This document shows, one piece after another, positions 2,933 to 3,373 of a stretch of DNA of 64,000 nt (positions within the stretch are counted from its first letter, which is position 1; every line of letters starts with the position of its first letter). The stretch is from a virus. Its lineage: Duplodnaviria; Heunggongvirae; Uroviricota; Caudoviricetes. The translations under genes and the position numbers were made by a program. Location: the IMG/VR virus record IMGVR_UViG_3300013005_000022, positions 54,443 to 118,442 of that record. One strand, given 5' to 3'. Under the pieces are notes generated by a model. That model had not been told where the DNA came from and searched no databases. It saw only the letters and a program-made list of their open reading frames with translations.

Positions 2933-3373
2933 TTGTACCTCATGAAAAAAGAAATATACATACAAAATCGCAAAGCAAAATTCGATTATCATTTTCTAGA
3001 ACAATATGAGGCAGGAATTGTCTTGGTTGGCACTGAAGTAAAAAGTATCAAAGCCGCTAAAGTATCTTTAGTAGATTCCTATTGCTTCTTTGATAATGGA
3101 GAGCTATTCGTAAAGTCAATGAATATTACACCAGTTGACACTTCATTCGTACATGAACCAATGAGAATACGAAAACTTCTACTTCATCAAAAAGAACTTC
3201 GTAAATTAGAAAAAAATCTAACCGAAGGAACAACTATTGTAGTAACTGCTTTGAAAAGTGTTAATGGAAAAATCAAATGTTCAATTGCATTAGCCAAAGG
3301 TAAAAAAGACTATGATAAACGAGAGACTATCAAGAAAAGAGAATCTGATCGTTATGTTCGAGAAGAATGTTAA
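2933..3373 (+). CDS. smpB: SsrA-binding protein SmpB
   Basis: Aligns along its full length to bacterial SmpB (NRKAKFDYHF, GIVLVGTEVKS, DSYCFF, ITPVD, RKLLLHQKELRKL, ALAKGKKDYDKRETIK); the true start may be the ATG at 2942. Confidence 0.9.
   Translation: MYLMKKEIYIQNRKAKFDYHFLEQYEAGIVLVGTEVKSIKAAKVSLVDSYCFFDNGELFVKSMNITPVDTSFVHEPMRIRKLLLHQKELRKLEKNLTEGTTIVVTALKSVNGKIKCSIALAKGKKDYDKRETIKKRESDRYVREEC

What the first reader, a model, noticed from the sequence alone, without database searches (positions are those of the whole stretch)
2933..3373. Full-length SmpB encoded by a phage with no obvious cognate ssrA in the window
The protein aligns along its whole length with bacterial SmpB. Phages occasionally carry tmRNA; a phage smpB next to a Ro60-like gene is unusual. 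Either the phage also encodes its own tmRNA (possibly in 845-1294 or outside the window) or it supplements or hijacks host trans-translation.
Basis: partly seen in the sequence, partly recalled or inferred. Interest (0 to 1): 0.55.

Follow-up and report, generated by a model that had tools for sequence, protein, structure and literature searches.

The report
Phage SmpB beside Ro60, Y RNAs
A large freshwater bacteriophage carries its own intact copy of SmpB, the protein bacteria use with tmRNA to free stalled ribosomes, inside a small block of RNA-repair genes and with no tmRNA gene nearby; phage SmpB genes have been reported before, so this is a solid but modest find.

Summary
The ORF, best read as 2942-3373 from its ATG, is a complete SmpB. 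It passes Pfam and both NCBIfam equivalog cut-offs, its model matches only SmpB structures, and the tmRNA-binding, decoding-centre and C-terminal tail residues are kept. It evolves under strong purifying selection (dN/dS 0.07-0.16) in a clade of jumbo myophages from lake metagenomes.

The window is phage: terminase, tail sheath and topoisomerase II are present. A type IX secretion sorting domain points to a Bacteroidota host.

No tmRNA or tRNA was found in the window, in its 7 kb and 10 kb flanks, or in about 55% of a 254-kb relative.

The suggested tmRNA site, 845-1294, instead holds two tandem Y-RNA-like genes next to the Ro60 gene. Related phages have three or four such modules, some matching Rfam tRNA or YrlA.

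SmpB sits in a conserved cassette: Y RNAs, Ro60, SmpB, a winged-helix protein and a CCA-adding enzyme.

Most likely reading: the phage supplies SmpB to keep ribosome rescue running on host tmRNA during infection. A phage tmRNA elsewhere in the genome is not excluded.

Phage SmpB was reported in huge phages in 2020, so this is a new member of a known kind in a new gene context.

The parts
332..844 (+). Small ATP-dependent ligase-like protein (170 aa), first gene of the conserved block
   Evidence: Pfam DNA_ligase_A_M at 33.5 bits against a cut-off of 26.2, with only weak NCBIfam ligase hits. Conserved at 95% in L001 directly upstream of the RNA genes. Absent in L027.
901..930 (+). Promoter-like site upstream of the Y-RNA-like genes (tentative)
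   Evidence: Sigma-70-type consensus match GTGAAA-18-TATAAT, 10 of 12. This is a consensus match only and is not evidence of function.
964..1048 (+). Y-RNA-like module a: a closing stem with a bulge and internal loop, and no tRNA-like domain
   Evidence: The 5' arm CAAG-U-GG...GGU[C]GAGU pairs with the 3' arm ACUCACC...CC-CUUG. It is homologous to L027 module 2 and L246 module C. The motif GAGTTACWTCGT occurs without mismatch only here and in module b in the 64 kb.
1049..1215 (+). Y-RNA-like module b: the same kind of closing stem with several apical hairpins
   Evidence: UUGAUAG-U-AG pairs with CU-CUAUCAA, and the inner helix is GUAGAG:CUCUAC. It is conserved in L001 and L027. The RNA fold of 930-1256 has z=-3.6.
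1223..1257 (+). Intrinsic terminator ending the Y-RNA transcription unit
   Evidence: A 12-bp stem with 6 G-C pairs followed by a T run. dG is -19 kcal/mol and z is -7.1.
1295..2881 (+). Ro60-like RNA-binding protein (TROVE domain plus vWA domain with the MIDAS motif DTSGS)
   Evidence: Pfam TROVE at 57.4 bits against a cut-off of 23. PHROG 850 'RNA-binding protein' at E=1.6e-33. It is far below the NCBIfam Rsr equivalog cut-off, 33 against 900, so it is a divergent member.
2896..2929 (+). Terminator-like hairpin between Ro60 and SmpB
   Evidence: AAAAGCCUGGA...UCCAGGCUUUUUU, with dG -18.2 kcal/mol and z -5.6.
3460..3771 (+). Small winged-helix (TrmB/DnaD_N-like) protein, 103 aa
   Evidence: Pfam TrmB at 25.5 bits, just under the cut-off of 25.6. 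Kept between SmpB and the CCA enzyme in L001 and L029.
3783..4514 (+). Short class II nucleotidyltransferase, CCA-adding-enzyme-like (243 aa)
   Evidence: Pfam PolyA_pol head at 74.3 bits against a cut-off of 23. The best NCBIfam hits are CCA tRNA nucleotidyltransferases, all below their full-length cut-offs. The motifs GGxVRD, DxD, RRD and DDPLRxLR can be read in the sequence.

Best explanation
The gene at 2942-3373 encodes a functional, canonical SmpB carried by a jumbo myophage that probably infects a freshwater Bacteroidota host.

Shown: it has the SmpB sequence, fold, tmRNA-binding residues, decoding-centre aromatic residues and an intact C-terminal tail. The whole protein, tail included, is under strong purifying selection in a phage clade. 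It lies in a conserved cassette of Y-RNA-like genes, Ro60, SmpB, a winged-helix protein and a CCA-adding enzyme. No tmRNA gene lies in or near the window.

Inferred: during infection the phage SmpB binds the tRNA-like domain of a tmRNA, most probably the host's. It delivers alanyl-tmRNA to ribosomes stalled on broken or stop-less mRNAs, so that ribosomes are recycled for phage protein synthesis. Such mRNAs could arise from phage or host nucleases, from host RNA-targeting defences, or from shut-off of host smpB expression.

The neighbours would then handle the same kind of damage at other points. The CCA enzyme would rebuild the 3' ends of tRNA and tmRNA, and Ro60 with its Y RNAs would handle misfolded or damaged RNAs. 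Together they would form an RNA-repair and ribosome-rescue block.
For: Identity:
- Pfam E=4.4e-48.
- Both NCBIfam equivalogs are passed.
- phmmer to solved SmpB structures reaches E=4.7e-35.
- The model's 21 best PDB matches are all SmpB.

Functional residues, mapped to E. coli numbering from established literature:
- N17/K18/R19 correspond to N9/R10/K11, and Y24 to Y16.
- E31 corresponds to E23, L91 to L80, and K124 to K112.
- G132/K133/K134 correspond to G120/K121/K122.
- H136 corresponds to Y124 (aromatic), and D137/K138/R139 to D125/K126/R127.
- N9, Y16, L80, K112, G120, K121, D125, K126 and R127 are listed as invariant and R10 and K122 as nearly invariant in the 20-sequence alignment; K11, E23 and Y124 are conserved in P0001 but are in neither list.

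Selection and tail:
- The tail is as conserved as the body across phage relatives.
- dN/dS is 0.07-0.16.

Phage origin and persistence:
- Identical or related genes occur on 134-254-kb viral contigs and in many independent assemblies.
- G+C matches the surroundings.
- The nearest bacterial SmpB is only 50-58% identical, while the phage clade is 64-100% identical internally. This is an old phage gene, not a fresh capture.

Cassette:
- The Ro60, SmpB, CCA order is kept in the window, L001, L027 and L029.
- A distant 217-kb phage, L010, has SmpB, a DHH phosphoesterase and a Ro60-like vWA protein in a row.

No nearby tmRNA:
-.
- In four huge phages SmpB also lacks a tmRNA within 20 kb on either side.

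Context from the literature:
- Jumbo phages carry TROVE proteins, CCA-adding enzymes and RNA ligases that are read as repair of host attacks on the translation system (PMC7824862).
- tmRNA is cited as the main RtcB substrate, which links Ro60/RtcB repair operons to tmRNA (PMC10542128).

Other window genes:
- The window encodes a non-specific DNA/RNA endonuclease (25964-26539) that could generate truncated mRNAs.
Against: No experiment shows binding to any tmRNA, and the host and its tmRNA are not identified. About 45% of the related genome (1-76.7 kb and 215.9-254.4 kb of IMGVR_UViG_3300009158_000031) was not scanned, so a phage tmRNA may exist. A terminator-like hairpin separates Ro60 from SmpB, so co-transcription of the cassette is not established. 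In more distant clade members (L026, L030) SmpB sits without Ro60 or the CCA enzyme, so the linkage is not obligatory. The phage SmpB lacks about 8 N-terminal residues and has two short loop deletions relative to many bacterial proteins. Some bacterial sequences share these deletions.
Confidence: 0.6

Rival explanations
1. The phage has its own tmRNA gene elsewhere in its roughly 250-kb genome, and SmpB is its dedicated partner. This would be a complete phage-encoded trans-translation system, possibly with a phage-specific tag.
For: Huge phages are reported to carry both tmRNAs and SmpB (PMC7162821). Mycobacteriophages and Bacillus phage G carry ssrA (PMC4131195). About 45% of the related genome was not examined. 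The phage SmpB is only 50-58% identical to any bacterial SmpB found, which would fit co-evolution with a private RNA.
Against: No tmRNA and no tRNA gene was found in the window, in its flanks (7 kb and 10 kb), or in the 90 kb fetched from the 254-kb relative. Together this is about 139 kb of equivalent genome. None of 20 viral SmpB loci has a tmRNA within 10 kb on either side. None of four huge phages has one within 20 kb on either side. The tmRNA-contacting residues are the standard bacterial ones.
Confidence: 0.2
2. The phage SmpB is a decoy or inhibitor. It would sequester host tmRNA or occupy stalled ribosomes without productive tagging, to stop host trans-translation from tagging phage proteins or from signalling infection stress.
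For: Tail-defective SmpB variants are known to bind tmRNA and ribosomes without supporting tagging (established literature, recalled). A tRNA-like-domain-only RNA in phage DS6A has been proposed to inhibit tmRNA by titrating SmpB (PMC4131195), so phage interference with the pathway has a precedent.
Against: The tail is full length for its lineage and keeps GKK, the aromatic residue and DKR. Its helix is predicted as in ribosome-bound SmpB. The tail is as constrained as the body across the phage clade. Nothing in the sequence departs from functional SmpB.
Confidence: 0.07
3. SmpB here works with a non-tmRNA partner: one of the phage's own tRNA-like Y RNAs or another tRNA-like RNA. It would be part of a Ro60/Y-RNA particle acting at the ribosome.
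For: SmpB recognises a tRNA-like elbow. Related phages encode tRNA-like domains inside Y-like RNAs about 2 kb upstream of SmpB: L027:7897-7959 matches Rfam tRNA at 41 bits. L246 has two YrlA-type modules upstream of its Ro60, though no SmpB was found within the 2.5 kb fetched downstream there. SmpB lies next to a Ro60-like gene in two distant phage lineages. Chen et al. speculate that tRNA-like Y RNAs may meet ribosomes or tRNA-binding proteins (PMC4201824).
Against: The two modules in this window have no detectable tRNA-like domain. Clade members L026 and L030 keep SmpB without Ro60. The conserved tail and decoding-centre residues point to the ordinary ribosomal A-site role. There is no direct evidence.
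Confidence: 0.05
4. The gene is host DNA: bacterial contamination, a chimeric assembly, or the flank of a prophage integrated at ssrA.
For: Many 'phage' records that contain SmpB in public collections are likely prophage flanks, because smpB neighbours the common attachment site ssrA. Examples are the Listeria, Staphylococcus and Klebsiella records.
Against: The gene is embedded among same-strand phage genes 10 kb from the terminase. Its G+C equals the rest of the window. The same arrangement recurs in many independent assemblies and in diverged relatives. No adjacent tmRNA or integrase was seen. The nearest bacterial homologue is at most 58% identical.
Confidence: 0.01

Closest known systems
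Bacterial SmpB (SsrA-binding protein; Pfam PF01668, TIGR00086)
   Same: It has the same family, fold, length class, tmRNA-binding and decoding-centre residues and C-terminal tail motif.
   Different: It is encoded by a virus. It is at most 58% identical to any bacterial sequence found. It is about 8 residues shorter at the N terminus and has two short loop deletions. No ssrA gene is detectable nearby.
SmpB genes of huge phages and megaphages (Al-Shayeb et al. 2020, PMC7162821; Lak phages)
   Same: These are also phage-encoded full-length SmpB in genomes above 200 kb, and none has a tmRNA within 20 kb on either side in the four genomes checked.
   Different: They share only 44-49% identity with this protein, no closer than bacterial SmpB. 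In those phages SmpB lies 5-15 kb from large tRNA arrays. Here there are no tRNA genes within about 139 kb of equivalent genome, and the neighbours are Ro60, Y-like RNAs and a CCA-adding enzyme.
Phage-encoded tmRNA (mycobacteriophages Bxz1, Catera and others; Bacillus phage G; the tRNA-like-domain-only RNA of DS6A; PMC4131195)
   Same: This is also phage investment in the trans-translation pathway.
   Different: Those phages are listed for the RNA, and that paper does not list them as having SmpB. This phage carries the protein, and no tmRNA has been found so far.
Bacterial rsr (Ro60), Y RNA (YrlA/YrlB) and RtcBA RNA-repair loci, with the Ro60/Y-RNA genes of phages (Chen et al. 2014, PMC4201824)
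   Same: A TROVE protein gene is preceded by tandem small RNA genes. The ends of those RNAs form a bulged stem, and in relatives they carry tRNA-like domains.
   Different: SmpB and a CCA-adding enzyme are neighbours here, in place of RtcB and RtcA. The two RNAs in this window lack a recognisable tRNA-like domain. The Rfam YrlA model is not reached at gathering score even in relatives (36.3 against 69).
RNA-repair and ribosome-rescue gene sets of jumbo phages (Iyer et al. 2021, PMC7824862)
   Same: The ROT/TROVE protein, CCA-adding enzyme, ligase-type enzymes and PhoH all occur here as well.
   Different: That survey does not mention SmpB or tmRNA (0 occurrences of tmRNA; not listed as holding SmpB). 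Here SmpB is physically inserted in the repair block.

Membership tests
SmpB (SsrA-binding protein) | Matches the family profile above the curated cut-off over its full length | tested here: met
   Pfam at 163.3 bits against 27. NCBIfam equivalogs at 165.5 against 130 and 154.3 against 119.1.
SmpB (SsrA-binding protein) | Oligonucleotide-binding beta-barrel body with a C-terminal helix-forming tail | tested here: met
   The AlphaFold model has pLDDT 83.7, with strands and helices in SmpB order and helix 126-142. Foldseek ranks 1-21 are all SmpB, with TM up to 0.84.
SmpB (SsrA-binding protein) | Conserved tmRNA-binding and decoding-centre residues (E. coli N17-R19, Y24, E31, L91, K124, H136) | tested here: met
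   The equivalents N9-K11, Y16, E23, L80, K112 and Y124 are present, and most are invariant in alignment A2. The mapping to E. coli numbers rests on the known E. coli sequence and published mutagenesis, recalled rather than re-tested.
SmpB (SsrA-binding protein) | Basic C-terminal tail with GKK and DKR motifs, of functional length | tested here: met
   The tail is GKKDYDKRETIKKRESDRYVREEC, with 16 residues after DKR against 15-20 in the aligned bacterial sequences. It is conserved across the phage clade.
SmpB (SsrA-binding protein) | A cognate tmRNA (ssrA) in the same genome | tested here: inconclusive
   None was found in the window, in its flanks, or in about 55% of a 254-kb relative. The remainder could not be fetched. 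A host tmRNA may serve.
SmpB (SsrA-binding protein) | Binds tmRNA and supports trans-translation | not testable with these tools
   This needs a binding assay, a tagging assay or complementation.
tmRNA (as proposed for 845-1294) | tRNA-like domain: acceptor stem with G3:U70, T arm, and a 3' end for alanylation | tested here: not met
   ARAGORN finds nothing. There is no Rfam tmRNA or tRNA hit even at E<=10 in 1-6500 or at E<=1 in the whole window. The T-loop consensus is not enriched, and no match falls within 845-1294.
tmRNA (as proposed for 845-1294) | Short tag reading frame ending in a hydrophobic, Ala-rich C terminus and a stop | tested here: not met
   A six-frame translation of 845-1294 shows no such peptide. 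The only two ...LAL* matches in the window lie on the minus strand inside coding regions.
Y RNA / YrlA (for 964-1215) | Encoded next to a Ro60/TROVE gene, often as tandem RNAs from one precursor | tested here: met
   Two modules lie directly upstream of the TROVE gene, with one strong terminator at 1223-1257. There are 3 modules in L027 and 4 in L246 at the same place.
Y RNA / YrlA (for 964-1215) | The 5' and 3' ends pair into a long stem with a bulge and internal loop (the Ro60-binding module) | tested here: met
   All 11 modules fit N4-5-AG-[U]-RG ... CY-CU-N4-5, with RG:CY as GG:CC or AG:CU in 11 of 11. The outer pairs vary in a compensatory way, and an inner helix with a 5' bulge is seen in most modules (inner-helix pairings for several modules were read by hand from the module sequences). 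Actual Ro60 binding is not testable here.
Y RNA / YrlA (for 964-1215) | A tRNA-like domain (T and D arms) in at least one Y RNA of the locus | tested here: not met
   It is not detectable in this window. It is met in relatives: L027:7897-7959 matches Rfam tRNA at 41.4 bits, E=2.9e-7, and L246:1989-2055 matches Rfam YrlA at 36.3 bits, E=1.2e-5.
Y RNA / YrlA (for 964-1215) | Reaches the Rfam YrlA (RF02553) gathering score | tested here: not met
   There is no hit in the window. The best hit in a relative is 36.3 bits against 69. The RNAs are therefore called 'Y-RNA-like', not members of RF02553.

The most novel reading that the evidence does not exclude
The conserved block of Y-like RNAs, Ro60, SmpB and a CCA-adding enzyme is one functional unit: a phage counter-defence module. 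It would couple recognition and repair of damaged tRNA-shaped RNAs, tmRNA included, to ribosome rescue. In its strongest form, SmpB would partner with a phage tRNA-like Y RNA rather than, or as well as, tmRNA. SmpB next to a Ro60-like gene in a second, distant phage lineage (L010) hints that the linkage is selected and not accidental.
Probability: 0.12. Interest if true: 0.75.

Novelty: new member of a known kind. Interest (0 to 1): 0.4.

Why it matters
Trans-translation is the main ribosome-rescue route of bacteria, and several phages are known to depend on it or to interfere with it. A phage lineage that has kept an intact, strongly constrained smpB for a long time, apparently without its own tmRNA, suggests that SmpB supply limits phage translation in infected cells.

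Its position inside a Ro60, Y-RNA and CCA-adding block suggests a specific experiment. One can ask whether ribosome rescue is part of the phage answer to host RNA-cleaving defences. The locus also adds a family of unusually simple, tandem Y-like RNAs, some with and some without tRNA-like domains. These could help define what Ro60 needs in its RNA partner.

None of this overturns current views. The value lies in a clean, testable example.

Tried and rejected
1. tmRNA in 845-1294. Rejected: no ARAGORN or Rfam signal, no tag frame, and homology to Y-like RNAs.

2. An IMG/VR-wide scan with a tmRNA 3'-end pattern (GGAC...GTTCRANTC...CTCCA), meant to catch a tmRNA on the related contigs.

3. Walking along the 254-kb relative, using the six viral scans that remained after the first relatives search and the pattern scan. 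This reached 76.7-126.7 kb and 175.7-215.9 kb and found no tRNA or tmRNA, but the genome is not covered completely.

4. Near-identical phage in GenBank. None was found (megablast of 12 kb).

5. Host identification from the nearest bacterial SmpB. The result was ambiguous: Acidobacteriota, Bacteroidales, Saprospiraceae and others all lie at 50-57% identity, and the hit list is biased by the search patterns.

6. Bacteroidota-type promoter motif TTTG-N17-22-TANNTTTG. It is not enriched over shuffles. Only the sub-motif TATATTTG shows a suggestive fixed distance to some start codons.

7. T-loop-like matches on the minus strand at 27628 and 27981. That gap is filled by two 80-aa plus-strand ORFs, and its fold is no better than shuffles (z=0.07).

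8. The 53.8-54.5 kb gap. It is filled by small ORFs.

9. A truncated-tail, dominant-negative SmpB. Rejected on tail length and conservation.

10. The metagenome scan with Ro60 gave only five loci. It was too few for a statistical covariation test, but it delivered the informative L246.
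Full report

Yes. The ORF at 2933-3373 on the plus strand matches Pfam SmpB (PF01668) with E=4.4e-48. The match covers profile positions 2-138 of 143. The ORF also passes both NCBIfam equivalog models for SmpB: NF003843 at 165.5 bits against a cut-off of 130, and TIGR00086 at 154.3 against 119.1. It matches every solved SmpB by sequence; the best is Thermotoga maritima 7ljp at E=4.7e-35.

An AlphaFold model built on a 20-sequence alignment has mean pLDDT 83.7. Its 21 best Foldseek matches in the PDB are all SmpB. TM is 0.84 to ribosome-bound E. coli SmpB (6q98_5) over 140 columns, which includes the C-terminal helix.

The true start is almost certainly the ATG at 2942. 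The identical 143-aa protein P0001 is called from that codon on 13 or more contigs, and diverged relatives begin at the same Met.

**2. Is it a phage?**

Yes. All large ORFs lie on one strand. PHROGs identifies a large terminase (13775-15565), a tail sheath (15621-18881) and topoisomerase II (28115-29950). Pfam adds a T4-type baseplate protein, PhoH and a non-specific endonuclease. G+C is flat at 33-36%.

No close relative is in GenBank phages. The same gene order is found on IMG/VR contigs of 134-254 kb and on many lake-metagenome contigs.

A protein at 43222-45144 ends in a type IX secretion sorting domain (Por_Secre_tail, 35.5 bits against a cut-off of 27). A relative, L026, encodes a CHU_C domain. 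From established knowledge, both domains are confined to the Bacteroidota group. A Bacteroidota host is therefore likely.

**3. Is the protein intact and in use?**

I aligned the protein with nine clade relatives and ten more distant homologues (alignment A2). It keeps the residues that published mutagenesis and ribosome structures tie to function. The mapping to E. coli numbering is from memory:
- N17/K18/R19 correspond to N9/R10/K11.
- Y24 corresponds to Y16.
- E31 corresponds to E23.
- L91 corresponds to L80.
- K124 corresponds to K112.
- G132/K133/K134 correspond to G120/K121/K122.
- H136 corresponds to Y124.
- D137/K138/R139 correspond to D125/K126/R127.

The tail has 16 residues after DKR. 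The aligned bacterial sequences have 15-20. The tail is therefore not truncated.

The protein lacks about eight N-terminal residues and has two short loop deletions. Some bacterial sequences share these deletions.

Within the phage clade (window, L001, L027, L029, L026, L030) the tail is as conserved as the body. Pairwise dN/dS is 0.07-0.16 wherever dS is not saturated.

The clade is 64-100% identical internally. The nearest bacterial proteins are 50-58% identical and come from several phyla. Other phage SmpB groups, such as Lak megaphages and the LR7565xx huge phages, are no closer than bacteria. The gene is therefore an old, maintained phage gene and not a recent pick-up or an assembly artefact.

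**4. Is there a partner tmRNA?**

ARAGORN finds no tRNA or tmRNA in the 64 kb. Rfam finds nothing at gathering score and only two snoRNA-type chance hits at E<=1.

Flanks of the same phage are also empty. These are 7 kb upstream (L024) and 10 kb downstream (L032).

I then walked along the 254,393-bp relative IMGVR_UViG_3300009158_000031, whose SmpB is 90% identical. This took six further scans of the viral collection and covered 76,708-126,653 and 175,650-215,874. Again there was no tRNA or tmRNA by ARAGORN or by Rfam.

Together with the window this is about 139 of 254 kb, or 55%. The rest could not be fetched.

None of 20 viral SmpB loci has a tmRNA within 10 kb on either side. In Lak-B5, Lak-A2, LR756501 and LR756502 SmpB lies 5-15 kb from large tRNA arrays, with no tmRNA within 20 kb on either side.

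**5. What is in 845-1294?**

It is not one: there is no tRNA-like domain, no tag frame and no model hit.

The stretch is conserved in relatives. Identity is 87% in L001 and about 70% over two blocks in L027. It ends in a strong terminator at 1223-1257 (dG -19 kcal/mol, z -7.1) and folds better than shuffles (z -3.6).

It contains two copies of a module whose 5' part carries GAGTTACWTCGT. That motif occurs without mismatch nowhere else in the window. L027 has three modules and L246 has four; L246 is a 170-kb contig whose Ro60 is 62% identical.

All 11 modules share the same closing stem:
- The stem reads 5' N4-5-AG-[U]-RG ... CY-CU-N4-5 3'.
- RG:CY is GG:CC or AG:CU in all 11.
- The outer pairs change in a compensatory way.
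- An internal loop follows, then an inner helix that in most modules carries a single-nucleotide bulge on the 5' side (several inner-helix pairings were read by hand).

The apical parts differ between modules:
- L027 module 1 embeds a cloverleaf-order tRNA-like element. It matches Rfam tRNA positions 4-67 of 71 at 41.4 bits, E=2.9e-7, yet ARAGORN calls no tRNA there.
- L246 modules A and B carry the permuted order of T arm, stem-loop and D arm that defines YrlA. They hit Rfam YrlA at 36.3 bits (E=1.2e-5) and 20.9 bits, both below the gathering score of 69.
- The two modules of this window align with L246 modules C and D, which lack such a domain.

Tandem Y RNAs next to Ro60, with a tRNA-like domain in at least one of them, are what Chen et al. 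2014 describe for more than 250 bacteria and phages (PMC4201824). I therefore-1048 and 1049-1215 Y-RNA-like genes. They are not members of RF02553, because the gathering score and the tRNA-like domain are not met in this window.

**6. The neighbourhood**

The order is as follows:
- a ligase-like ORF at 332-844;
- the Y-like RNAs;
- Ro60, with a TROVE domain and a vWA domain carrying DTSGS, at 1295-2881;
- a terminator-like hairpin at 2896-2929 (dG -18.2, z -5.6);
- SmpB;
- a winged-helix protein at 3460-3771;
- a 243-aa CCA-adding-type nucleotidyltransferase at 3783-4514, in which the motifs GGxVRD, DxD, RRD and DDPLRxLR are readable;
- two unknown ORFs and a 5'-nucleotidase.

The Ro60, SmpB, CCA order is kept in L001, L027 and L029. 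The more distant clade members L026 and L030 have SmpB in a different setting.

A separate 217-kb viral contig, L010, has an SmpB 53% identical to this one. There SmpB is followed by a DHH/DHHA1 phosphoesterase and a DUF2828/DUF7788/vWA protein with weak similarity to this Ro60. SmpB next to a Ro60-like gene therefore recurs, though not always.

**7. How it most likely works**

Shown: an intact, constrained SmpB, no nearby tmRNA, and a place within an RNA-handling block.

Inferred: SmpB needs a tmRNA to act. Its RNA-contact residues are the ordinary bacterial ones. No tmRNA turned up in more than half of the related genome. The simplest reading is that the phage tops up or replaces host SmpB and uses host tmRNA. 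This would clear ribosomes stalled on truncated messages during infection.

Such messages are expected when host nucleic acids are degraded or when host defences cut RNA. The window encodes a non-specific DNA/RNA endonuclease at 25964-26539.

The neighbours fit this reading:
- CCA-adding enzymes rebuild the 3' ends of tRNA, and by extension of tmRNA.
- Ro60 with Y RNA handles damaged or misfolded RNA.
- Jumbo phages are already thought to carry TROVE proteins, CCA enzymes and ligases to undo attacks on the translation system (PMC7824862).
- tmRNA is cited as the most frequent substrate of RtcB, the ligase of bacterial Ro60 operons (PMC10542128).

I put this reading at about 0.6. The rivals are:
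- a phage tmRNA in the unscanned 45% of the genome (0.2);
- an inhibitory decoy (0.07), disfavoured by the conserved tail;
- a non-tmRNA partner such as a tRNA-like Y RNA (0.05), disfavoured here because this phage's Y-like RNAs lack that domain;
- host contamination (0.01).

**8. Comparison with what is known, and novelty**

Phage-encoded tmRNA has been known since the mycobacteriophage genomes (PMC4131195). PHROGs holds the family as phrog_6791, labelled 'unknown function'.

The find is therefore a new member of a known kind. What I did not find described is the physical linkage of SmpB to Ro60, Y RNAs and a CCA-adding enzyme (literature searches).

Interest is moderate at 0.4: the example is clean and testable rather than surprising.

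Noticed in passing
window 964-1048 and 1049-1215 (terminator 1223-1257): There are two tandem Y-RNA-like genes directly upstream of the Ro60 gene. They share a covarying bulged closing stem with 9 further modules in related phages, and neither has a recognisable tRNA-like domain.
   Followed up: yes
L027:7872-8000 (tRNA-like part 7897-7959): A Y-like module whose apical part is a cloverleaf-order tRNA-like element (D arm, 'anticodon' arm with loop CUGCAAC, T arm) lacks the top of the acceptor stem. It matches Rfam tRNA at 41.4 bits, yet ARAGORN calls no tRNA.
   Followed up: partly
L246:300-2500: In a 170-kb relative (Ro60 62% identical), seven tRNA genes are followed by four Y-like modules, two of the permuted YrlA type, and then Ro60. 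No SmpB lies within the 2.5 kb downstream. The window's phage has no tRNA genes in about 139 kb of equivalent genome.
   Followed up: partly
L010:9968-13102: In an unrelated 217-kb viral contig, SmpB (155 aa) is followed by a DHH/DHHA1 phosphoesterase and a 517-aa DUF2828/DUF7788/vWA protein weakly similar to Ro60. This is a second case of SmpB next to a Ro60-like gene.
   Followed up: partly
window 43222-45144: A 640-aa protein has a cohesin-like domain and a C-terminal type IX secretion sorting domain (Por_Secre_tail). This is odd cargo for a phage and a pointer to a Bacteroidota host.
   Followed up: partly
window 3427, 6053, 42094 (also 27121): TATATTTG lies exactly 33 nt (38 nt at 27121) upstream of the start codons of the genes at 3460, 6086, 42127 and 27159. 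It resembles the Bacteroidota -7 promoter box TAnnTTTG. The general motif is not enriched over shuffles.
   Followed up: partly
window 332-844 (and 38-328): The 170-aa ligase-like protein matches only the C-terminal half of the ATP-dependent ligase adenylation domain. Where motif I (KxDG) is expected it reads KWRGWR. It may be a split or degenerate ligase, and it is absent from relative L027.
   Followed up: no
window 2896-2929: A strong terminator-like hairpin with flanking A and T runs lies between the Ro60 stop and the SmpB start. SmpB is therefore either read through or has its own start signal within about 12 nt of the ATG.
   Followed up: partly
window 21083-25962 and 58198-63210: There are two clusters of sugar-nucleotide and glycosyl-transfer genes: NDP-hexose 2,3-dehydratase, an oxidoreductase, two DegT-type aminotransferases, a hexapeptide acyltransferase, an epimerase and several glycosyltransferases. 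This suggests synthesis of an unusual amino-deoxy sugar, perhaps for DNA or surface modification.
   Followed up: no
L406-L409 (LR756502, Lak-B5, LR756501, Lak-A2): In four huge phages the SmpB gene lies 5-15 kb from arrays of 9-27 tRNA genes, with no tmRNA within 20 kb on either side. One ARAGORN call in LR756501 has a four-base anticodon (ttac).
   Followed up: partly
L001:26-2431: An 801-aa, highly repetitive Lys/Ala/Glu/Pro-rich protein is encoded about 7.5 kb upstream of SmpB in the 254-kb relative. Its equivalent lies just outside the window.
   Followed up: no
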